A stretch of DNA of 64,000 nt, from assembly GCA_964599405.1 (NCBI GenBank), contig CAZRED010000001.1, positions 149,942-213,941 on the forward strand, written 5' to 3'. Position 1 is the stretch's first letter, and every line of letters begins with the position of its first letter. A model generated the notes under the pieces. That model was not told where the DNA came from and did not search any database. It saw only the letters and a list, made by a program, of their open reading frames with translations. This document shows, one piece after another, positions 19,851 through 55,659 of the stretch. The position numbers and the translations under genes were made by a program. The DNA is from an uncultured Candidatus Saccharibacteria bacterium (GTDB lineage: Bacteria; Patescibacteriota; UBA1384; 2-12-FULL-50-11).

Positions 19851-20450
19851 ATGGAAAATAAGAGTAACTTATTCATCGCCGGTGTGTTCTTGGTAGGAAT
19901 AATTGCCGGGGTATTACTTGCTCCAGTCGTAAAAAATACTACGGGAATGATGAGCAGAGATGGTAGCACGCAACAGGAGCGAATGGACAAAATGTTCATT
20001 GAACAGATGGTCCCACATCACGAAGACGCGATTGCAATGGCTAAGATTGCCCAAGAAAAAGCTACACGACCGGAGATTAAACAGTTAGCAGCTGATATTA
20101 TTTCTAGTCAGTCGACGGAAATAGAACAAATGAAGAAGTGGTATAAAGATTGGTTTGGGAGTGATGTATCTAGCGTTGACCATACCGCAATGCATCACGG
20201 CGGTGGAATGATGCCAGGCAGTATGATGTCTGAAACTGATATTACCCGACTCACGACAGCCAATCCATTTGAGAAAGAATTTATTCGGCAGATGATACCC
20301 CATCATCAAATGGCAGTAATGATGGCCGAGATGCTAAAAACTACAACTGACCGAGCCGAAATGAAAAAACTGGCCGAAGATGTTATTACGGCCCAAACCG
20401 CTGAGATTGAAAAAATGAGAGCGTGGGATAAGGCTTGGTATGGGGCCTAA
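19851..20450 (+). CDS. DUF305 family four-helix-bundle metal-binding protein
   Basis: Two repeats of the DUF305 motif (QMVPHHEDAIAMAKIA and QMIPHHQMAVMMAEML). N-terminal TM/signal. Confidence 0.8.
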   Translation: MENKSNLFIAGVFLVGIIAGVLLAPVVKNTTGMMSRDGSTQQERMDKMFIEQMVPHHEDAIAMAKIAQEKATRPEIKQLAADIISSQSTEIEQMKKWYKDWFGSDVSSVDHTAMHHGGGMMPGSMMSETDITRLTTANPFEKEFIRQMIPHHQMAVMMAEMLKTTTDRAEMKKLAEDVITAQTAEIEKMRAWDKAWYGA

Positions 20451-23416: not shown

Positions 23417-25384
23417 ATGGATCACCACGGTCATACTAGCGGCCATCATTCGATGGGCGCTGATGATGCTCAAATGTTTTTGCGGCGATTTTGGTACACA
23501 ACATTTCTGCTAGTTCCGCTCCTGTTGGTTAGCAACGTCGGGATAAAGTTTTTTGGTGTGCCGGACTTTGGCGGCCGTGAATTTGTTGGCTTTGCCATTT
23601 CCACGGTAATCTTTTACTTTTCTTGGATATTCTTTGAGCACGCTACCCACGAGATAAAGAGCCGAAGTTACGGGATGATGACACTGGTTTCGGTAGCGGT
23701 GGCCAGCGGCTTTTTGTTTTCAGTGGCTTCCACTTTTATTCCGTCGTTTGGCGGGGTGGAATTTTTCCTGGAAATCTCAACCTTAATCTGGGTACTGCTG
23801 TTTGGCCACTATTTGGAGGCGAAATCAACGGCGACCGCCGGTTCGGCCTTGCAAGAAGTGGCCAAATTACTGCCAAAAGTTGTCCACCTGCTCGACGGCG
23901 AGCAAACCACAGACGTGCCGGTGGAGCAGATTAAAGCTGGTGACATGATTGTGGTTAAGCCAGGCGAAAAGTTACCGGCCGACGGCACAATTTTGGAAGG
24001 GGCGGCCAATATGGACGAAGCGCTAGTAACTGGCGAGTCAAAACCAATCAGTAAAAAAACGGGGGACGCGGTGATTGCCGGATCAATTTGTTTGGACGGT
24101 TCGCTCAAAATCAGAATTGAAAAAACTGGCCTGGATTCGACGGTTGGTCATATTCAACAGCTAGTTGAGCAGGCCCAAACAACCAAGCCACAACTGCAAC
24201 ATATCGCCGACCGGGTGGCCTCGTTGTTGACCTTTGTGGCGCTGGGTACGGCAATTTTGACGGTGCTGATTTGGACGTTGGTGAGTGGCCAGACGTTTGC
24301 ATTTGCCCTGACGATGGCCGTGACGGTGCTGGTGATTGCTTGCCCGCACGCCCTGGGATTAGCAATTCCAACCGTTTCTACTACCGCCACTTCCTTGGCA
24401 CTAAAGCACGGCATTTTCTTAAAATCACTTAAAAAATTAGAGGCGGCCCGAAATATCAGCATCGTTGCCTTCGACAAAACCGGGACACTGACCGAAGGCC
24501 ATCCTGGGGTTACTGATGTGGTGGGCGAGAACCGTGAGGAGGCTTTGCGAGTTGCCGCGGCGTTAGAAGCGGGCTCCAGCCACCCGCTCGCCCAGGCAAT
24601 TATTGCCGAGGCTAAGGGAGCTAAGGCGAAAGTAACCGAATTTAAAAACCTGGCCGGGCGGGGCGTTAGCGGCACAGTTGAAGGCAATAAGTATTGGCTG
24701 GGCAACACAGAGATTCTGGAACAAGTTGATTTGAGCGAACAGAAAAATGATTTCGAGCGATTAAGCGCCGAGGGCAAAACAGTGGTGATACTACGCGATA
24801 AAACCCAGGTGCTTGGTCTAATCGCCGTTGCCGACAAAGTTCGTCCGGAGTCCAAAGAGGCGGTCAAACAACTGCACAACATTGGCGTGAAAGTGGCGAT
24901 GATTACCGGCGATAACGAAGGCGTGGCCAAAACCGTCGCCGGAGAATTGGGAATCGATACGTACTTTGCACAGGTTTTGCCAGAGGACAAATACAAAAAA
25001 ATTAAAGAACTTCAGGACAAGGGCGAGCAAGTGATGATGGTCGGGGACGGGGTCAATGATGCCCCGGCCTTGATTCAGGCAAACGTTGGGGTAGCAATCG
25101 GTGCCGGAACGGATGTGACGGTGGAAGCTGGCGATATTATTTTAACCAAGAACAACCCTGCTGATATCCCCAAGCTATTAATATTAAGTAAAAAAGTTTA
25201 CGGCAAAATGATTCAAAACTTGGTCTGGGCCGTTGGCTACAACGTTATAGCGATCCCCGCTGCCGCTGGGGCGTTTGCGAGCTTCGGTTTATTTTTGCGC
25301 CCGGATGTCGGAGCGTTTCTGATGGCGATGTCGTCGGTGGTGGTGGTAATTAACGCCCTGCAATTAAAGAGAGTGAAATTGTAG
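23417..25384 (+). CDS. copB: P1B-type heavy-metal ATPase, CopB-like (CPH motif, His-rich N-terminus, no HMA domain)
   Basis: N-terminal MDHHGHTSGHHSMG. TM6 CPH (IACPHALG). DKTGTLT phosphorylation site, GDGVNDAP, HP motif. Confidence 0.9.
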   Translation: MDHHGHTSGHHSMGADDAQMFLRRFWYTTFLLVPLLLVSNVGIKFFGVPDFGGREFVGFAISTVIFYFSWIFFEHATHEIKSRSYGMMTLVSVAVASGFLFSVASTFIPSFGGVEFFLEISTLIWVLLFGHYLEAKSTATAGSALQEVAKLLPKVVHLLDGEQTTDVPVEQIKAGDMIVVKPGEKLPADGTILEGAANMDEALVTGESKPISKKTGDAVIAGSICLDGSLKIRIEKTGLDSTVGHIQQLVEQAQTTKPQLQHIADRVASLLTFVALGTAILTVLIWTLVSGQTFAFALTMAVTVLVIACPHALGLAIPTVSTTATSLALKHGIFLKSLKKLEAARNISIVAFDKTGTLTEGHPGVTDVVGENREEALRVAAALEAGSSHPLAQAIIAEAKGAKAKVTEFKNLAGRGVSGTVEGNKYWLGNTEILEQVDLSEQKNDFERLSAEGKTVVILRDKTQVLGLIAVADKVRPESKEAVKQLHNIGVKVAMITGDNEGVAKTVAGELGIDTYFAQVLPEDKYKKIKELQDKGEQVMMVGDGVNDAPALIQANVGVAIGAGTDVTVEAGDIILTKNNPADIPKLLILSKKVYGKMIQNLVWAVGYNVIAIPAAAGAFASFGLFLRPDVGAFLMAMSSVVVVINALQLKRVKL

Positions 25385-36132: not shown

Positions 36133-37044
36133 ATGAAAAGACCAAAATTAGTATTAATAATTATTGTGCTGGTTGTTGTAGCCGCGTTGGGGGCCGGAGT
36201 TTATTTCAAGCTGATTCCCCGTCTGTTCCAAAAACCCGTCGCCACAGTAGTCGATCAGCTATTCGGTTGGAAGTTTCCAATTACCAAATTCCCACTGGTT
36301 GGGCCGGATGGCCAACTGGCGTACTCCAACATCCGTGATCCTGGCGGTATACCACAAGGGCTACCAGTTCGCCTGAAAGTTCCCGTTATCGGCGTCGATT
36401 CAGCTATTGAAGACGCGCTGATTACCCCGGACGGAAGAATGGACGTGCCAATCGGCTCGGTTAATGTTGCCTGGTTTTCTCTTGGCCCTCATCCCGGCGA
36501 CGAAGGAAGCGCGGTGATCGGTGGGCATTTTGGGATTAGAGACGGGGTGCCGTTCGTCTTCTACAACTTAGACAAGCTAAAGGTTGGCGACAAGGTATAT
36601 GTGGTCGACGACAAAGACCAGACATTGGCTTTCCAGGTCAGGGAAATTAAATTATTCGATCGAAACGCTGATGCAACGACGGTTTTTACCTCCGATGACG
36701 GGTTGGCTCATCTTAACCTGATTACTTGCGAAGGCATTTGGAACCAAGTTGACGGTTCGTATCCCGAGCGGCGAGTAGTGTTTACCGATGCCATACCATC
36801 AGAAGGGGCAGTAACCGTTACTCCTAAGTCTCCAACGGCGGCGATTCCCACGCCAAACCCAACACCAACTCCGACACCAACTCCGACAACAGAAAATACA
36901 GTATCTACAGCTGCCTTGCTTCAGAGCGTGAATCGGGCAATAAAAAGTGCGGCCAGTACGCCAATCGACGCACTAATCACTTTCACCCTACTAGCTTCGA
37001 TAGCGTATATGGCCACCAAAATCGTCAGGCTCCGCAGAGCATAG
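36133..37044 (+). CDS. Sortase family transpeptidase
   Basis: N-terminal TM. Catalytic His in GGHFG, TLxTC-type motif LNLITCEG, Arg in RRVVFTD. Pro/Thr-rich linker and C-terminal TM. Confidence 0.75.
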   Translation: MKRPKLVLIIIVLVVVAALGAGVYFKLIPRLFQKPVATVVDQLFGWKFPITKFPLVGPDGQLAYSNIRDPGGIPQGLPVRLKVPVIGVDSAIEDALITPDGRMDVPIGSVNVAWFSLGPHPGDEGSAVIGGHFGIRDGVPFVFYNLDKLKVGDKVYVVDDKDQTLAFQVREIKLFDRNADATTVFTSDDGLAHLNLITCEGIWNQVDGSYPERRVVFTDAIPSEGAVTVTPKSPTAAIPTPNPTPTPTPTPTTENTVSTAALLQSVNRAIKSAASTPIDALITFTLLASIAYMATKIVRLRRA

Positions 37045-40311: not shown

Positions 40312-41253
40312 ATGAGGGTTCTGAACATGACTAAGCCTAGTAAGTATTCAACAATCAATGTATTGATCGCTTCCTTGGTGGTTGGACTCGCTGGTGTAGT
40401 TGTAGCATTCGCGGCCGGCCCCACAACCGTCAATCTTGGCACAGCCGAACCTTTTGCCATCCTAGCTGGGACTCCTGATATTACTGACTCTCCGACATCG
40501 ACTATTACTGGAAACGTTGGGTTGTACCCAGGCCCTGCTTCCGGTATCGGGCTACTTTGTTCACAAGTAACCGGGACAATCTATGGGCGCGATGGCACGG
40601 GTGACCCGTGTTTTACGGTCAACGATCCGTTACTCCTGGCGGCCAAGAACGACTTAACTGCCGCGTTTACCGATGCAGCCGGGCGAACACCGGTTATTAT
40701 TGTACCAACCGAGCTCGGCGGAACGACTAAATTTGCAGGTGTTTACGCCTCTGACGACACTACGTTTCAGATTTCGGCACCAATCCCCCTCATCCTCGAT
40801 GGACAAGGCGATCCCAATGCCGTTTTCATCTTCGAAATGAATGCGGAGGGAACCGGACTGACTGTCGGACCGGGTAGTGTGGTACAGCTCACGGGCCAGG
40901 CCCAGGCCTGCAACGTCTTTTGGCGAGTAGACACAGCTACTATCGACAGCACCGCGGTATTCAAGGGTACTATCCTGGCTCTGACCTCGATTACGGTGGC
41001 TAACGGCGCCAACATTGAAGGAAGACTATTGGCTCGTAACGGTAGCGTCACCTTAATTAACGACACCATCACCAAACCGACTTGTGTAGCAGCGGCTACA
41101 GTCACTCCGCCGGCAACTACGCCATCTCTCCCCGACACTGGTCTAACTCCCGATGGCAGCAACAGTGCCGTGTGGAGCGTTATTATCCCAGTTTGGGCCA
41201 TTGCCGGTCTGTTCTCGTTCTGGTTAGTTCGACGCAAACAGCGGACGATTTAG
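40312..41253 (+). CDS. LPXTG-anchored ice-binding-like (DUF3494) beta-helix protein
   Basis: AEPFAILAGTPDIT...GNVGLYPG and CNVFWRVDTATIDSTAVFKGTILALTSITVANGANIEGRLLARNGSVTL are DUF3494 hallmarks. C-terminal LPDTG, TM, then RRKQRTI. Confidence 0.7.
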   Translation: MRVLNMTKPSKYSTINVLIASLVVGLAGVVVAFAAGPTTVNLGTAEPFAILAGTPDITDSPTSTITGNVGLYPGPASGIGLLCSQVTGTIYGRDGTGDPCFTVNDPLLLAAKNDLTAAFTDAAGRTPVIIVPTELGGTTKFAGVYASDDTTFQISAPIPLILDGQGDPNAVFIFEMNAEGTGLTVGPGSVVQLTGQAQACNVFWRVDTATIDSTAVFKGTILALTSITVANGANIEGRLLARNGSVTLINDTITKPTCVAAATVTPPATTPSLPDTGLTPDGSNSAVWSVIIPVWAIAGLFSFWLVRRKQRTI

Positions 41254-41301
41254 TCTAGGCATTAAATAAGAGGCGCTAATATATTTACCTGGAGGGCCGG
41301 T

Positions 41302-41922
41302 ATGGGTCTATCACCAGCTCCATTAAAACGAGTGCTATTAGCTATCAAGCTGGTGGGGGTGTCAGCGGGAATTGTCGTCTCTTTGGCAATTTACTCTGCC
41401 AAAAATACCCCCGACTATGAAAACGTCTTAGTGCCCGTTGAGAAAATCGTCGTTCCTTCGGTGGTAGCGCCGGCTCTTTTGGCTTCTCCGTTGCGACTGA
41501 AGATTCCTAAGATTGAGGTTAACGCCGTCATCGAATACGTCGGTCTGAACACTGATGGAGCAATGGGAGTGCCGAAAGATCCCGCCGATGTTGCTTGGTT
41601 CAATCTCGGGGCACGACCCGGTGAGGTTGGTAGCGCGGTAATCGCCGGGCACTACGGGTGGAGAAATAATATTCCAGCGGTATTTGACGATCTCCATAAA
41701 TTGCGTCCTGGTGATACCTTAGTAATCGAGGACGACAGAGGAGCAAGCACCACCTTCGTGGTGCGGGAAAGCCGCCGGTACGACCCGACAGCGGACGCCT
41801 CGGAGATATTTTTGCAAAGCGACGGGATAGCTCACCTTAACCTAGTTACCTGCGAAGGGGTGTGGAACGTCGCTACTGATAGTTACTCTCGGCGGCTGGT
41901 GGTATTTACCGACAAACAGTAG
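41302..41922 (+). CDS. Sortase family transpeptidase (second copy)
   Basis: Paralog of 36133-37044 (IAGHYGW, NLVTCEG, RRLVVFTD). N-terminal TM. Confidence 0.75.
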   Translation: MGLSPAPLKRVLLAIKLVGVSAGIVVSLAIYSAKNTPDYENVLVPVEKIVVPSVVAPALLASPLRLKIPKIEVNAVIEYVGLNTDGAMGVPKDPADVAWFNLGARPGEVGSAVIAGHYGWRNNIPAVFDDLHKLRPGDTLVIEDDRGASTTFVVRESRRYDPTADASEIFLQSDGIAHLNLVTCEGVWNVATDSYSRRLVVFTDKQ

Positions 41923-44613: not shown

Positions 44614-45828
44614 ATGAGTAAACTTCCCGGCTGGCTCTTAGGAGTGATCGGCGCAGTAGTAGTTGTTGGCTCGGCAACAGCTTTTTACTTTTGGCAGAAG
44701 CAACCGGAGCCGCCAGCTCAATCAGAACAGGTAGAAACCACCGCCACTCCACCGCCCGCCACCACCAAGCTAGCATCAATATTGGTAGTAGACGGGCTGG
44801 AAGCGCCAACTGTCATAATGACCATTGCCGGTGACGATCGGCTGTTTGTGGCTGAACAAGGCGGCACCATCCGAACCGTCGCCAACAAAACGTTGTCAGC
44901 AACACCATTTATCGACATTTCCGACCGAGTGCGCTTCGACGGCGAAATGGGGCTGCTAGGTGCGTCCTTTCACCCGGACCTAGCCAATGACGGCCGGATT
45001 TTCCTGAACTACGTTGATAAAAACATGAATACCACTATCTCCAGTTTTCGGGTGACCGGCGAAAATTTCGCCACGGCCGATCCGGCCAGTGAGAAAGTGC
45101 TACTGCGCTTTAAGCAACCGTATGCCAACCATAACGGCGGTGATCTGCATTTTGGACCAGACGGCTACTTGTACATTGCCACCGGTGATGGCGGGAGCGG
45201 TGGCGATCCGCAAGACCGCGCCCAAAACTTAACTAATTTTTTCGGGAAAATTCTCCGAATTGATGTCAACAGCGGCGACCCCTACAAAGTTCCCACCGAC
45301 AATCCGTTCGTGGCCACGGCGGGCGCTACCACCGAAATTTGGGCCTACGGGTTGCGTAATCCCTGGCGCTTCAGTTTCGACAAAACCACCAAGGATATGT
45401 GGATTGCCGATGTCGGACAAGGGGACCAAGAGGAAGTTAACTTCATTGCAGTTGGTAGTAAGAGTGGTTTGAACTTTGGTTGGCGCTGCTACGAAGCGGC
45501 CAGCAATTATAATTTGAGCGGCTGTTTGGCCAAAGAAAATTACACTTTCCCCGTTACCAGCTACGACCATAGCGCCGGGCGCTGCTCGGTAACCGGCGGC
45601 CACGTTTACCGCGGCGAAAAGTACCCATCTTTGGTGGGACAGTATTTCTACGCCGATTACTGTGGTGGGCAGATCTACACCGGCTCAATTGCTAACGGAG
45701 TATGGACGGACGGCTTCAGTTTAGAAACAGAATTTGGGCCGACCGCCTTTGGCCAAGACAACGACGGCGAAATATATCTGGCCGACGCCAAATCCGGCAG
45801 CCTCTACCACCTCCAAGGCGCTAACTAA
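44614..45828 (+). CDS. PQQ-dependent sugar dehydrogenase family beta-propeller (sorbosone/glucose dehydrogenase-like), N-terminally anchored
   Basis: LFVAEQGGTIR, GLLGASFHPD, HNGGDLHFGPDGYLYIATGDGG and KILRIDV motifs of the soluble quinoprotein glucose dehydrogenase family. Confidence 0.7.
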   Translation: MSKLPGWLLGVIGAVVVVGSATAFYFWQKQPEPPAQSEQVETTATPPPATTKLASILVVDGLEAPTVIMTIAGDDRLFVAEQGGTIRTVANKTLSATPFIDISDRVRFDGEMGLLGASFHPDLANDGRIFLNYVDKNMNTTISSFRVTGENFATADPASEKVLLRFKQPYANHNGGDLHFGPDGYLYIATGDGGSGGDPQDRAQNLTNFFGKILRIDVNSGDPYKVPTDNPFVATAGATTEIWAYGLRNPWRFSFDKTTKDMWIADVGQGDQEEVNFIAVGSKSGLNFGWRCYEAASNYNLSGCLAKENYTFPVTSYDHSAGRCSVTGGHVYRGEKYPSLVGQYFYADYCGGQIYTGSIANGVWTDGFSLETEFGPTAFGQDNDGEIYLADAKSGSLYHLQGAN

Positions 45829-45962
45829 CTGGGGTTACGTTTGGCGGTGCACATCGGGCACTCGCAAGCGTTATCGCTGCATTTGCACTCGGCCATGCCG
45901 TCGTTATTGTTGGCGCCGCACACTGCACACGGTGCTCCACAAACACACATACTTTCTTCCAT
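45825..45962 (-). CDS. 45-aa Cys-rich metallothionein-like micro-protein
   Basis: MEESMCVCGAPCAVCGANNNDGMAECKCSDNACECPMCTAKRNPS has 10 Cys in 45 aa. SD GGAGG lies 5 nt upstream. The stop overlaps the convergent dehydrogenase stop. Absent from the ORF track because it is short. Confidence 0.45.
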   Translation of the reverse strand: MEESMCVCGAPCAVCGANNNDGMAECKCSDNACECPMCTAKRNPS

Positions 45963-46052
45963 CAAGCCTCCTTTTCAATACCTAACCACAAAATCACAAA
46001 AAGAAAAACCGCGCTCGAAGCGCGGTTTTCCGCCGAACATGTAATCCGTTGA

Positions 46053-46487
46053 CTACATTACCGGTTTTTGCGGTGGTGGCATGCTGCTGCCGCCACTTGA
46101 GGCCATCGAATCCATTGACGAGCCGCCTCCTGCGAAGCCGCCCCAAAGGAAAATCAGAGCCAAGACCACGTAGACCCAAGTGTGGGCCATATTGGTATCC
46201 ATAATTCCTAGAATCGTATCGGTTTGGAAGAAGCCGATAATCGCAAACAGCGCAAAAATAACTCCGAAAATCCGGAGATAAGTCTTGGCTGAATCGTTAC
46301 CCGCCATACCCATCCATAGACCCAAAGCACCAATGACGATATGAACAATGCTGTGAACGGTATCAACTTGGAAGATACCGAAGATCATTTTGTCGTCGTT
46401 AGTAATGCCAGGGATGAAACCAAGAACACCTAGCACGACTAGGATTAATCCGAACCATGTTGCTAATGACTTTGCCATAGGTTTCAC
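46053..46487 (-). CDS. DUF4383-like 4-TM membrane protein
   Basis: Two repeated LG(F)IPG...H.IVH.VIGALG units. Gly/Ser-rich tail. Confidence 0.4.
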   Translation of the reverse strand: MKPMAKSLATWFGLILVVLGVLGFIPGITNDDKMIFGIFQVDTVHSIVHIVIGALGLWMGMAGNDSAKTYLRIFGVIFALFAIIGFFQTDTILGIMDTNMAHTWVYVVLALIFLWGGFAGGGSSMDSMASSGGSSMPPPQKPVM

Positions 46488-46627
46488 CTCCTCCCCTAAT
46501 AGTTGTTCAACTTTACTCTTGTATTAAGAGTTATCTATTTAAAATAAAAAAGCAAGCAATTACCGCCGCCAGGCTGATTGACAGGGTTAGCGGGAGGCGT
46601 ATCGTAATATTAAAGAGGGGGTTAATA

Positions 46628-46852
46628 ATGTGGTTTGGAAAAAAACATCAGGATCGATCGTACGTAGCAGTCGCCATGACCGTGATTTTCATGGGAGCAG
46701 CGATTTTTGCCTTTGGAGTGAGCGGCTGGCTGATTAACTGGATGAACGAAGACCTTATCGTCGCGATTCCATCAATGAAAATCCTCGGCGGTATTGTGAT
46801 TATGAGTCTTGGCTACATTCAATTAGAGCTCGGTTTACTACGCAACAAGTAA
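46628..46852 (+). CDS. Small 2-TM membrane protein
   Basis: 74 aa, two helices. Confidence 0.35.
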   Translation: MWFGKKHQDRSYVAVAMTVIFMGAAIFAFGVSGWLINWMNEDLIVAIPSMKILGGIVIMSLGYIQLELGLLRNK

Positions 46853-53590: not shown

Positions 53591-54475
53591 TTAAGAAACT
53601 AGGTGCTTAAAGTGGTCTTTCTGCAAGCGCAGCTTTCGAATTGCAGATGTCTCTGCATCAATGACCGTGTGACGACAGATGCTAAGTATCTCTCCAACTT
53701 CATCAAGTGTTCTAACAACGCCATCTTCTATGCCGAAGCGCAATACGATGACGTCTCTCTGTCGAGCTGTGAGTTCCCCCAGTACTGCTTTGAACAGTTC
53801 TTCTCGCACTAACTTATCTTCAACTTCGGACATTTGATTACTAGCTAGTAGTTCAACGATCGTATCATCGCCACTTTCTCCAACAGGTGTGTCAAGAGAA
53901 ATAATAGACTGCCCAGAAGACAACATATTGGCTACTTTTTCCGAACTGTAGCCTAGGTAGTTGGAGATATCGGCTTGCGTCACGGAATGCCGAAGTTTTT
54001 TCTCGAGTGCTTCCACCTCCTTTCGAAAACCGCTCAATGCGGTGGTAACGTGGATTGGAAGACGGATAGTTCTACCTTCATTGAGTAAACCGCGATTTAT
54101 CTTCTGGCGAATCCATAGAGTCGCGTAAGTAGAAAATCGACAGCCTCTGCTATAGTCGTAGCGCTTCGCCGCTTCCATCAGACCTATAAACCCCATCATG
54201 AAAAGGTCGTCCATATCCTGGGAGTAGGCTTTTCTTTCGGCGGCCTTTTTGGCGATCGACAAGACCAGACGAAGGTTGGCCTTGACCAGGTGTCTGTGCG
54301 CTTCAATACTTCCTTCTTCTTTAACCTTTCGGCCAAGATCTAACTCCTGTTCTTTGTTCAGAAGGTGATCTTGCGAAGTTACCCGGACAAGTGCCGAAAT
54401 TGATGACGAGCTTTCCAGCTCGCTCTCTTGTGTTAGTAACGAGTTGGTCGGCTTTTTTCTCATATCAAGTCTCAT
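53591..54475 (-). CDS. Sigma-70 family sigma factor (group 2/3-like, regions 2-4)
   Basis: Region 2 (YSQDMDDLFMMGFIGLMEAAKRYDYSRGCRFSTYATLWIRQ) and region 4 HTH (TLDEVGEILSICRHTV). Confidence 0.75.
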   Translation of the reverse strand: MRLDMRKKPTNSLLTQESELESSSSISALVRVTSQDHLLNKEQELDLGRKVKEEGSIEAHRHLVKANLRLVLSIAKKAAERKAYSQDMDDLFMMGFIGLMEAAKRYDYSRGCRFSTYATLWIRQKINRGLLNEGRTIRLPIHVTTALSGFRKEVEALEKKLRHSVTQADISNYLGYSSEKVANMLSSGQSIISLDTPVGESGDDTIVELLASNQMSEVEDKLVREELFKAVLGELTARQRDVIVLRFGIEDGVVRTLDEVGEILSICRHTVIDAETSAIRKLRLQKDHFKHLVS

Positions 54476-54540
54476 ATGTGAACGTTCACTGGGAAATTAT
54501 AGCTCTAAAATGGCACAAACTCAATTATCAAGCCGGCAGT

Positions 54541-55659
54541 TTACGTCAAGTAGTCTTTGAGACGCGAGGCTTCTTCGTGCTTTTTCAGCTTCTGCAGAGC
54601 TTTGGCTTCAATCTGGCGGATACGCTCGCGAGTAACGCCGAACTCTTTACCCACTTCTTCCAGGGTGTGGGTGCGGCCGACGCCCTCTTCTGGCTCCAAG
54701 CCAAAGCGCATTCGGAGAATCTTTTGCTCGCGCGGCGTTAGAATCGCTAGGGATTCCTCGACGTGGCCTTTCATCAACTGGTAAATCGCCTGCTCTTCTG
54801 GGGAGATGGCCGTTTTGTCTTCGATAAACTCGCCCAAACTGGAATCGCCTTCATCGCCGACAGGGGATTCCAGCGAAACGGTTTCTTGGGAAATCTTCAT
54901 GATGTGCTCGAGCTTCTCCAGGTCAACGCCAAGTTTTTTGGCCAGCTCTTCGTGGGTTGGTTCGCGGCCCAGCTCTTGCTGCAGTTCGCGCTGGGTGCGC
55001 ATGTAGCGATTGATGGTTTCCACCATGTGAACTGGGATACGAATCGTTCTGGCTTGGTCGGCAATCGCTCGGGTAATCGCTTGGCGAATCCACCAGGTAG
55101 CGTAAGTCGAGAACTTAAACCCCTTTTTGTAATCAAATTTTTCAACGGCTCGGTGCAAACCCAGGTTGCCTTCTTGAATTAAATCCAGCAGCGACAGACC
55201 CCGGCCGATGTATTTTTTGGCAATCGAAACAACAAGGCGCAGGTTAGCTTCAGCTAAACGGCGCTTAGCGGCTTTATCGCCGCGCTCAATCCGCTTGGCT
55301 AGCGCCACCTCTTCTGGGCCGGTTAGCAATGGGTATTGCCCAATTTCCCGCAGGTACATTCGAACAGAATCTTCGGAAATGCCGGTTAAATCGTCTTCTT
55401 TGATGTTTTTCTTTTTCTCATCAACGCCCGGGATATCCAGTAGGGCTTTTGGTTCGCGCAGCTCCACGCCAATAGCGCTAAGGTAGCGCATATATTCGTC
55501 AATCATCTCCAAATCCTGCTCCGGTTCGGGAAACGACTGGAGAATTTCTTTGTAGGTAACAAAGCCGTGCTGACGGCCTTTTTTAATCATGTACATTAGC
55601 TCATCGGGAAAATCTAACCCGACGTCTTGTTTAACTTTTTTGGGAACCGCTTTTGTCAT
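54541..55659 (-). CDS. rpoD: Primary sigma factor RpoD
   Basis: Region 1.2, region 2.x ([41 protein letters not shown]), region 3 and region 4 ([24 protein letters not shown]). Confidence 0.9.

What the first reader, a model, noticed from the sequence alone, without database searches (positions are those of the whole stretch)
45825..45962. Cys-rich 45-aa metallothionein-like micro-ORF overlapping the 3' end of the quinoprotein dehydrogenase gene
MEESMCVCGAPCAVCGANNNDGMAECKCSDNACECPMCTAKRNPS has 10 Cys (22%) arranged as CxC/CxxC/CxC/CxC/CxxC, with an SD 5 nt upstream. It was missed by length-filtered ORF calling. It is convergent with, and overlaps by 4 nt, the PQQ-dehydrogenase-family gene. 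It could be a metal-binding peptide, in keeping with the metal island elsewhere in the window, or a RiPP-like precursor.
Basis: seen in the sequence. Interest (0 to 1): 0.55.

Follow-up and report, generated by a model that had tools for sequence, protein, structure and literature searches.

The report
Conserved unannotated nine-cysteine micro-protein gene
A 45-codon reading frame that gene callers missed is a real, conserved gene in a small group of Patescibacteria, and it encodes a tiny protein with nine invariant cysteines that most likely binds metal ions like a metallothionein, although its function is untested.

Summary
The ORF at 45825..45962 (-) is real. It has an AGGAGG ribosome-binding site 4 nt before the ATG and overlaps the convergent GSDH-type dehydrogenase gene by 4 nt. 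It has 9 cysteines, not 10.

Seven distinct homologues (42-46 aa) turned up in related Patescibacteria contigs.
- All nine Cys are invariant, and TGT/TGC alternate at 8 of the 9 positions.
- Synonymous sites are near saturation (pS 0.5-1.0) while pN is 0.06-0.33.
- Only this frame is stop-free in all seven loci.
- Six of the seven have the same SD.

In six loci the gene follows a DUF4383 membrane-protein gene and that gene's terminator hairpin. In one locus it lies 34 nt upstream of a CcdA/DsbD gene. One syntenic relative lacks it.

Pfam, NCBIfam, PDB sequence and Foldseek searches all found nothing. No RiPP maturase lies in any locus, and the peptide has no leader or signal peptide.

Best reading: a cytoplasmic metal-thiolate mini-protein from a previously undescribed family, working like a metallothionein. 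Metal binding, metal identity and transcription are inferred, not shown. The link to the window's metal island, 20 kb away, is unsupported.

The parts
45825..45962 (-). Coding sequence of the 45-aa nine-cysteine micro-protein, stop codon included
   Evidence: ORF and translation. Seven distinct homologues with all 9 Cys invariant and pN well below pS. It is the only frame open in all seven loci.
45967..45972 (-). Shine-Dalgarno sequence AGGAGG, 4 nt upstream of the ATG
   Evidence: Read from the sequence. AGGAGG lies 4-7 nt before the ATG in 6 of 7 homologous loci.
45993..46031 (-). GC-rich hairpin (13 pairs) plus T-run: an intrinsic-terminator-like element between the DUF4383 gene and the micro-ORF
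   Evidence: Terminator scan. An equivalent hairpin sits at the same place in L035, L037, L033, L040 and L034. It is also present in L042, which lacks the peptide gene. It therefore belongs to the DUF4383 gene and marks the upstream boundary of the micro-gene.
46053..46487 (-). DUF4383 membrane-protein gene, the same-strand upstream neighbour in six of seven loci
   Evidence: Pfam PF14325, E = 9.5e-24. Synteny.
44614..45828 (+). Convergent glucose/sorbosone dehydrogenase (GSDH) family gene that overlaps the micro-ORF stop by 4 nt
   Evidence: Pfam PF07995, E = 3.9e-47. Overlap read from the sequence.

Best explanation
The ORF is a genuine protein-coding gene. It encodes a 45-aa acidic cytoplasmic mini-protein whose nine invariant cysteines (CxC, CxxC, CxC, CxCxxC) most likely hold metal ions in thiolate sites.

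By analogy with the 9-Cys beta-domain of animal metallothioneins and with the 4.9-kDa Cu(I) metallothionein MymT, the expected load is about three divalent ions (Zn/Cd) or 4-6 Cu(I). The protein would therefore act like a metallothionein, buffering or sequestering soft metal ions in the cytoplasm and possibly handing them to a partner.

It belongs to a previously undescribed family found so far only in a narrow Patescibacteria (probably Saccharimonadia-like) clade. It is translated from its own strong SD. It sits as a separate mini-cistron after the terminator of the DUF4383 gene. In two relatives it has its own downstream terminator.

Shown: the gene is real, it is under purifying selection, the cysteines are invariant, and there is no signal peptide, leader or maturase gene.
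Inferred: metal binding, which metal, the stoichiometry, the physiological role, and how the gene is transcribed.
For: - Seven distinct homologues of 42-46 aa were found in related contigs, all with the nine Cys in register.
- Cys codons alternate between TGT and TGC at 8 of 9 positions. Pairwise pS is 0.50-1.05 against pN 0.06-0.33, and dN/dS is 0.04-0.35 where it can be computed.
- Every other frame carries a stop in at least one locus.
- AGGAGG lies 4-7 nt before the ATG in 6 of 7 loci.
- Composition: 20-21% Cys, His absent in six of seven, 0-1 aromatic residues, net acidic, N-terminus MEE(E)K and so no signal peptide.
- The loop between the two Cys halves varies in length (7-10 residues), while the C-terminal CxC[ST][DE]N[AG]C[DE]CxxC is fixed.
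- AlphaFold2 gives only a moderate model (pLDDT 66.6) with short helices starting at each CxxC, as in metal knuckles.
- Neighbourhoods repeatedly carry copper or thiol-redox genes. These are cupredoxin next to DUF4383 in L033, glutaredoxin and HMBD-MauE in L035, MauE in L039/L040, and CcdA/DsbD 34 nt downstream in L038.
- MymT is a precedent. It is a 4.9-kDa bacterial CxC protein, found by screening a genomic library, that binds 4-6 Cu(I) (PMC6337107).
Against: - No sequence or fold similarity to any known metallothionein or zinc-finger family was found.
- Non-Cys residues are better conserved (E2, G9, N31, P44 invariant; C-terminal KRNP[SA] in six of seven) than is usual for a pure metal sponge. 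This hints at a specific fold or partner.
- No metal-sensing regulator (ArsR/SmtB, CsoR, CopY, MerR) and no metal transporter lies next to the gene in any locus.
- The window's metal genes are about 20 kb away.
- No sigma-70-type promoter was found between the upstream terminator and the SD, so how and when the gene is transcribed is unknown.
- Predicted zinc-finger Cys motifs in small proteins can be metal-free or bind a metal other than zinc, and AlphaFold2 cannot tell which (PMC11241148).
Confidence: 0.5

Rival explanations
1. It is a folded structural zinc-knuckle or zinc-ribbon micro-protein. Two Zn(Cys)4 sites would be built from the four Cys pairs, leaving one spare Cys. The protein would act through a specific partner, such as the DUF4383 membrane protein or CcdA, or as a small regulator, rather than as a metal buffer.
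For: - Two CxxC motifs (C12-C15 and C35-C38) are separated by 19 residues, as in zinc ribbons, and each is followed by a predicted short helix.
- G9 after the first knuckle is invariant, the SDNAC motif and the C-terminal KRNP tail are conserved, and spacing in the C-terminal half is fixed.
- The gene lies next to a DUF4383 gene in six loci.
- Small C(P)XCG zinc-finger proteins are a known class (PMC11241148).
Against: - No zinc-ribbon or zinc-finger Pfam model matches, even at E = 10, and Foldseek finds no PDB match.
- Nine invariant Cys is more than two Zn(Cys)4 sites need.
- There is almost no hydrophobic core.
- The DUF4383 link is not obligatory. L038 has the peptide without DUF4383, and L042 has DUF4383 without the peptide.
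Confidence: 0.2
2. It is a redox-active thiol peptide. Its CxxC and CxC dithiols would cycle between thiol and disulfide and feed or buffer a thiol-disulfide relay (CcdA/DsbD, MauE, glutaredoxin) that serves extracytoplasmic proteins encoded nearby.
For: - In L038 the gene lies 34 nt upstream of a CcdA/DsbD_TM gene on the same strand.
- Glutaredoxin and MauE genes lie within a few kb in L035 and L039/L040.
Against: - The peptide has no thioredoxin fold and is too short to form one.
- The CcdA adjacency occurs in only one of seven loci.
- Nine closely spaced invariant Cys are typical of metal clusters rather than of a redox relay.
Confidence: 0.1
3. It is the precursor of a ribosomally synthesised, post-translationally modified peptide (thioether or sulfur-to-carbon cross-linked, as in SCIFF, ranthipeptides or lanthipeptides).
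For: It is small, Cys-rich, contains Ser/Thr and Asp/Asn next to Cys, and has conserved termini.
Against: - No radical-SAM, lanthionine synthetase, YcaO, DUF692 or peptidase-transporter gene lies in any of the seven loci or within about 10 kb in the window.
- The conserved Cys begin at residue 6, so there is no leader.
- NCBIfam, the library NCBI uses to name bacterial proteins, gives no hit.
- In L035 and L037 the gene is bracketed by terminators as a single-gene unit.
Confidence: 0.06
4. It is a regulatory Cys-rich leader ORF whose translation senses cysteine or Cys-tRNA supply, as in the mycobacterial polycysteine attenuators, or it is simply a chance ORF.
For: - Cys-rich short ORFs can act as cysteine-responsive attenuators (bioRxiv 10.1101/834739).
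- L038 has a downstream gene on the same strand.
- A chance open frame with 8 Cys exists elsewhere in the window.
Against: - In six of seven loci nothing lies downstream on the same strand. The next feature is a convergent gene or a terminator.
- The Cys are dispersed, not consecutive.
- Non-Cys residues are conserved at the amino-acid level while synonymous sites are saturated.
- Only this frame is open in all loci.
Confidence: 0.03

Closest known systems
MymT, the mycobacterial Cu(I) metallothionein
   Same: Both are bacterial cytoplasmic proteins of about 5 kDa with several CxC motifs, encoded by very small genes. MymT binds 4-6 Cu(I) and protects against copper (PMC6337107). This is the best functional analogy.
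   Different: - phmmer against 1.84 billion representative proteins returned only two members of the new family, so no sequence similarity to MymT was detected.
- From my own knowledge, MymT uses His as well as Cys and is under the copper repressor RicR. Six of the seven members here have no His (L038 has one), and no regulator lies nearby.
Beta-domain of vertebrate metallothionein and fungal Cu-metallothioneins (Pfam Metallothio and relatives)
   Same: All have nine Cys in about 30 residues, arranged as CxC and CxxC, with no aromatic residues or His. From my own knowledge, the beta-domain forms an M(II)3Cys9 or Cu(I)6 cluster. The C-terminal half here (CxC-x4-CxCxxC) resembles the CxC-x3-CxCxxC of those proteins at the level of pattern.
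   Different: No Pfam metallothionein model matches, even at E = 10. The protein here is acidic rather than Lys-rich, and it has a variable acidic loop between two Cys halves. The resemblance is one of pattern, not demonstrated homology.
SmtA/BmtA bacterial zinc metallothioneins (Pfam PF02069)
   Same: Both are small bacterial Cys-rich metal-binding proteins. From my own knowledge, SmtA also uses nine Cys. It binds four Zn(II) and contains a zinc-finger-like fold (PMC10612145).
   Different: From my own knowledge, SmtA additionally needs two His ligands and aromatic residues. PF02069 does not match.
C(P)XCG zinc-finger micro-proteins of Haloferax volcanii
   Same: Both are proteins under 70 aa with paired CxxC knuckles, often missed or uncharacterised. 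Metal content cannot be predicted from sequence or from AlphaFold2 (PMC11241148).
   Different: Those proteins have four Cys per finger and a CPxCG signature. Here there are nine invariant Cys, including three CxC, and only the first CxxC is followed by Gly, and only in some members.

Membership tests
Metallothionein (operational superfamily) | Low molecular mass (under 10 kDa) with about 15-30% Cys arranged in CxC, CxxC or CC motifs | tested here: met
   45 aa, 9 Cys (20%), three CxC and two CxxC. The same holds in all seven members.
Metallothionein (operational superfamily) | Few or no aromatic residues and no stable hydrophobic core | tested here: met
   0-1 aromatic residue per member, and His absent in six of seven. 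The AlphaFold2 model reaches only pLDDT 66.6.
Metallothionein (operational superfamily) | Binds several metal ions in metal-thiolate clusters | not testable with these tools
   Needs ESI-MS, UV or NMR titration of the peptide with Zn(II), Cd(II) and Cu(I).
Metallothionein (operational superfamily) | Expression induced by metals, or a metal-tolerance phenotype | not testable with these tools
   No expression data are available. No metal-sensor gene lies next to the gene in any locus.
Known metallothionein sequence families (Pfam Metallothio, Metallothio_Pro PF02069 and others) | Match to the family profile HMM | tested here: not met
   No Pfam family at E up to 10 for any of the seven members. 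No NCBIfam hit. No PDB sequence hit at E up to 10.
RiPP precursor (SCIFF/ranthipeptide, lanthipeptide and similar) | Gene for a modifying enzyme (radical SAM, LanB/C/M, YcaO and others) in the same cluster | tested here: not met
   None in the window within about 10 kb, and none in L031-L040.
RiPP precursor (SCIFF/ranthipeptide, lanthipeptide and similar) | N-terminal leader (or follower) region distinct from a Cys-rich core | tested here: not met
   Invariant Cys span residues 6-38 of 45. Only 5 residues precede the first Cys.
Zinc-ribbon / C(P)XCG micro-proteins | Two CxxC knuckles forming one Zn(Cys)4 site, and a match to zinc-ribbon profiles or folds | tested here: inconclusive
   Two CxxC motifs are present and are followed by predicted helices. 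No Pfam zinc-ribbon model matches and Foldseek finds no PDB match.
Cysteine-responsive leader ORF (attenuator) | Short Cys-rich ORF directly upstream of the regulated genes on the same strand; peptide sequence itself not conserved | tested here: not met
   In 6 of 7 loci it is followed by a convergent gene or a terminator. The peptide sequence is conserved, with pN well below pS.

The most novel reading that the evidence does not exclude
This is the founding member of a new, Patescibacteria-restricted family of Cys9 metal-binding micro-proteins. It would be the first metallothionein or metallochaperone-like protein recognised in these ultra-small, reduced-genome bacteria. It may work with the adjacent DUF4383 membrane protein, whose C-terminal tail is Met-rich, in handling copper or another soft metal.
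Probability: 0.25. Interest if true: 0.6.

Novelty: new variant of a known kind. Interest (0 to 1): 0.45.

Why it matters
Small genes are systematically missed by annotation. This one is absent from the protein records of at least two NCBI genome assemblies that carry it.

Patescibacteria have minimal genomes, and how they handle metals is poorly described. My literature searches for metallothioneins or cysteine-rich small proteins in this group found nothing relevant. A conserved nine-cysteine protein kept under strong purifying selection in such genomes is likely to do something useful.

At 45 residues the peptide can be made synthetically, so the metal-binding hypothesis can be tested directly and cheaply. 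If confirmed, it would add a new sequence family to the few known bacterial metallothioneins (SmtA/BmtA, MymT, PmtA). It would also give a functional lead for the uncharacterised DUF4383 family.

Tried and rejected
- The word-index protein search with the single peptide found nothing. The same search with a four-sequence profile re-found only P0001 and P0002.
- Exact look-up of the window's peptide, and of its GSDH protein, for encoding contigs found nothing. The source record could therefore not be read.
- The 30 GSDH loci from the species-representative genome collection are all distant (at most 50% identity, other phyla), and none carries a Cys-rich ORF.
- GSDH relatives P0007, P0009, P0011, P0012 and P0013 (52-60% identity) have different or partly syntenic contexts and lack the peptide.
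- Pfam, NCBIfam and PDB sequence searches gave no hits.
The three-sequence run gave pLDDT 66.6, and Foldseek against the PDB found nothing.
- tblastn against plasmid and phage collections gave no match.
- An Rfam scan of 45700-46700 gave only sub-threshold hits to the terminator hairpin.
- A promoter search between the terminator and the SD found no convincing conserved sigma-70 promoter. Transcription remains unresolved.
- Five literature searches found nothing on this family: metallothionein + Saccharibacteria; Patescibacteria + cysteine-rich + small protein; Saccharibacteria + copper + cupredoxin; metallothionein + small or unannotated ORFs; and DUF4383.
- I considered that overlap with another gene might explain the conservation, and rejected it. 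In L035 and L037 the gene overlaps nothing, and the other five frames carry stops in at least one locus.
Full report
**1. The observation**

On the minus strand of the window an ATG at 45962 opens a 45-codon frame that ends with TAG at 45827..45825. It translates to MEESMCVCGAPCAVCGANNNDGMAECKCSDNACECPMCTAKRNPS. An AGGAGG lies at 45972..45967, 4 nt before the ATG.

The frame is convergent with the 404-aa gene at 44614..45828 (+) and shares 4 nt with it. That gene is a glucose/sorbosone dehydrogenase family member (PF07995, E = 3.9e-47).

There are nine Cys (20%), at residues 6, 8, 12, 15, 26, 28, 33, 35 and 38. The pattern is CxC-x3-CxxC-x10-CxC-x4-CxCxxC.

Cys density alone is not decisive. 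This is the most Cys-dense of the 1179 open stretches of at least 30 aa in the window. However, an 8-Cys open frame without a start codon lies antisense to a sortase gene.

**2. Is it a gene?**

The word-index search found nothing. An exhaustive phmmer search of 1.84 billion representative proteins found exactly two relatives. These are P0001 (42 aa) and P0002 (73 aa as called), both 60% identical with E about 3e-4.

Names attached to the closest GSDH homologues place the window in Patescibacteria, near Saccharimonadales.

I fetched the contigs that encode these hits and those that encode the closest GSDH relatives, and ran a degenerate-pattern scan of metagenome contigs. Together these yielded seven distinct family members:

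| Locus | Sequence |
|---|---|
| window | MEESMCVCGAPCAVCGANNNDGMAECKCSDNACECPMCTAKRNPS |
| L035/L036 | MEEEKPCACGVACAVCSGRDDGSAECNCSENACDCQMCSAKRNPS |
| L037 | MEEEKTCTCGVACVVCSGTDDGSGECSCSDNACDCQMCSAKRNPS |
| L031-L033 | MEEKPCDCGEACAFCVGDMEADCSCTDNACECAKCTVKRNPA |
| L039/L040 | MEEEKTMCDSCGATCAYCVGEEEADCTCSDNACECAKCTVKRNPA |
| L034 | MEEKMCACGVACDYCGGNEEGECSCSDNGCDCEKCAAKRNNVPAD |
| L038 | MEETKVCVCGVDCEFCAGSEEAECTCSDNACDCQKCAAHKPS |

All nine Cys align and are invariant. E2, G9, N31 and P44 are also invariant.

At the codon level, TGT and TGC alternate at eight of the nine Cys positions. Pairwise pS is 0.50-1.05, which is saturated, against pN 0.06-0.33. Where dS can be computed, dN/dS is 0.04-0.35.

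Only the peptide frame is free of stops in all seven loci. Each of the other five frames is interrupted in at least one. In L035 and L037 the gene overlaps no other gene, so overlap with the dehydrogenase gene cannot explain the conservation.

Six of the seven loci have AGGAGG 4-7 nt before the ATG.

This is a real protein-coding gene.

It is also unannotated. The exact peptides of the window, L035 (an NCBI assembly), L037 and L038 are absent from the 15-billion-protein collection. The neighbouring GSDH proteins of the same NCBI genomes are present.

**3. Anatomy of the locus**

In six loci the gene follows a DUF4383 membrane-protein gene on the same strand. In the window this is 46053..46487 (-), PF14325, E = 9.5e-24.

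Two hairpins always lie between the two genes. The first is small and spans the Met-stop codons of the DUF4383 gene (window 46039..46058). The second is a strong GC-rich hairpin followed by a T-run (window 46031..46003, 13 pairs). The SD follows 20-60 nt later.

L042/L043 is a syntenic relative whose GSDH is 54% identical. It has the same two hairpins but no peptide gene, and only 86 nt separate the DUF4383 and GSDH stop codons. The hairpins therefore belong to the DUF4383 gene. The micro-gene is an extra unit sitting between that terminator and the convergent gene.

In L035 and L037 a second strong terminator-like hairpin immediately follows the peptide stop codon. There the micro-gene is bracketed as a single-gene unit.

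I found no conserved sigma-70-type promoter in the short spacer. Transcription is therefore unresolved. It could be read-through of the upstream terminator, a promoter that overlaps the terminator, or a non-canonical promoter.

In L038 the neighbours differ. DUF4383 and GSDH are both absent, and the peptide gene lies 34 nt upstream of a CcdA/DsbD_TM gene on the same strand (PF02683, E = 1.5e-20). Homologues of the window's 74-aa and 252-aa proteins still flank the region.

The association with any single neighbour is thus not obligatory. Much of the synteny may simply reflect close relatedness.

**4. What it most likely does**

The protein has no signal peptide (N-terminus MEE(E)K). It is net acidic, has no His in six of seven members, has 0-1 aromatic residues and has essentially no hydrophobic core. 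Nine invariant cysteines are packed into 33 residues.

The loop between the two Cys halves varies in length and is rich in G, N, D, E and S. The C-terminal half, CxC[ST][DE]N[AG]C[DE]CxxC, is fixed.

AlphaFold2 gives a moderate model (pLDDT 66.6) with short helices beginning at each CxxC. The model has no match in the PDB.

These properties are those of a metal-thiolate mini-protein. From established knowledge, nine Cys is the ligand count of the M(II)3Cys9 / Cu(I)6 beta-domain of vertebrate metallothionein, and SmtA uses nine Cys plus two His for its Zn4 cluster. MymT, a 4.9-kDa CxC protein, binds 4-6 Cu(I) (PMC6337107).

I therefore propose a cytoplasmic metallothionein-like function, meaning buffering or sequestration of Cu(I), Zn(II) or Cd(II).

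Weak contextual hints point to copper or thiol-redox chemistry:
- cupredoxin next to DUF4383 in L033;
- glutaredoxin and a heavy-metal-binding-domain-MauE fusion in L035;
- MauE in L039/L040;
- CcdA in L038;
- Met-rich C-terminal tails on the DUF4383 proteins.

None of this is proof. No metal sensor or transporter is adjacent in any locus. The window's own metal genes, DUF305 at 19851-20450 and a CPH-motif P1B ATPase with a His-rich N-terminus at 23417-25384, lie about 20 kb away.

**5. Rivals**

- *Structural zinc-knuckle micro-protein with a partner (about 0.2).* The conserved non-Cys residues, the fixed spacing and the two CxxC motifs fit this reading. It shares the metal-binding premise and differs only in role. 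Predicted Cys4 sites in such proteins can be zinc-free (PMC11241148).
- *Thiol-redox peptide (about 0.1).* This rests mainly on the single CcdA adjacency.
- *RiPP precursor (about 0.06).* No maturase gene lies in any locus, there is no leader, NCBIfam gives no hit, and the unit is bracketed by terminators.
- *Cys-sensing leader ORF (bioRxiv 10.1101/834739) or chance ORF (about 0.03 together).* The conservation pattern and the absence of a downstream same-strand gene in six of seven loci effectively exclude these.

**6. Comparison with what is known**

Functionally the closest analogues are MymT and the 9-Cys metallothionein beta-domain. Membership of any known family fails:
- no Pfam model matches at E up to 10 for any of the seven members;
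- NCBIfam gives no hit;
- no PDB sequence matches at E up to 10;
- Foldseek finds nothing;
- plasmid and phage collections hold no match;
- phmmer against 1.84 billion representatives finds only the family itself.

Literature searches found no description of such a protein in Patescibacteria or Saccharibacteria.

**7. Verdict**

The ORF is a genuine, conserved, unannotated gene that founds a small Patescibacteria-restricted family of Cys9 micro-proteins.

The metallothionein-like reading is the best-supported mechanism. It rests on composition and analogy, not on homology or experiment. The RiPP reading is unlikely, and the link to the distant metal island is unsupported.

Novelty: a new sequence family of a known functional kind. 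Interest is moderate (0.45). This is a cheap and directly testable small-protein lead in a poorly understood bacterial group, not a categorically new system.

Noticed in passing
window 46039-46058 (-); also L035, L037, L033, L040, L034, L042: A small hairpin spans the last Met codon and the stop codon of the DUF4383 gene (window: ATGTAGTC-AACG-GATTACAT). It is present in every DUF4383 locus examined, including L042, which lacks the peptide. The top of the stem covaries (TC:GA, CC:GG, TA:TA, TT:AA), and a GC-rich terminator follows. It could affect translation termination or 3'-end stability. Rfam has no match.
   Followed up: partly
window 46053-46130 (-) and L037 760-841: The C-terminal tails of the DUF4383 proteins are Met-rich and end in a conserved MPPxQKPxM (window ...SSMDSMASSGGSSMPPPQKPVM; L037 ...EAMPSNDAMPPAQKPTM). 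This recalls Met-rich Cu(I)-binding motifs. The resemblance is speculative.
   Followed up: no
L038 1706-2618: In one relative the Cys9 gene lacks an SD. TATAAA and TATAAT hexamers lie just upstream of its ATG, so the mRNA may be leaderless. A CcdA/DsbD_TM gene follows 34 nt later on the same strand.
   Followed up: partly
L042 6180-6265: In the syntenic relative that lacks the peptide, the spacer after the DUF4383 terminator reads AAGGTGGCTCAAGC. This resembles the window's SD and start region, AAGGAGGCTTGATG. It may be a remnant of a deleted micro-gene, or it may be chance.
   Followed up: no
window 19851-20450 and 23417-25384: The 'metal island' comprises a DUF305 protein and a P1B-type ATPase with a CPH transmembrane motif and a His-rich N-terminus (MDHHGHTSGHHS...), which is CopB-like. 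It lies about 20 kb from the micro-ORF and is not part of the micro-ORF's conserved synteny.
   Followed up: partly
L035 7774-9139: In the closest relative, a reverse transcriptase (RVT_1) gene and a bAvd gene sit next to RmuC. This pair is typical of a diversity-generating retroelement. I did not check whether the window has the same pair.
   Followed up: no
window about 36800-36970 (-): An open frame with 8 Cys in 40 aa lies antisense to the sortase gene at 36133-37044. It has no start codon, so it is a chance frame. It shows that Cys-rich antisense frames arise by chance in this genome.
   Followed up: yes
window 40312-41922 and 53591-55659: An ice-binding-like domain protein lies next to a sortase (40312-41922). 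Two sigma-70 family genes lie in tandem (53591-54475 and 54541-55659, -).
   Followed up: no
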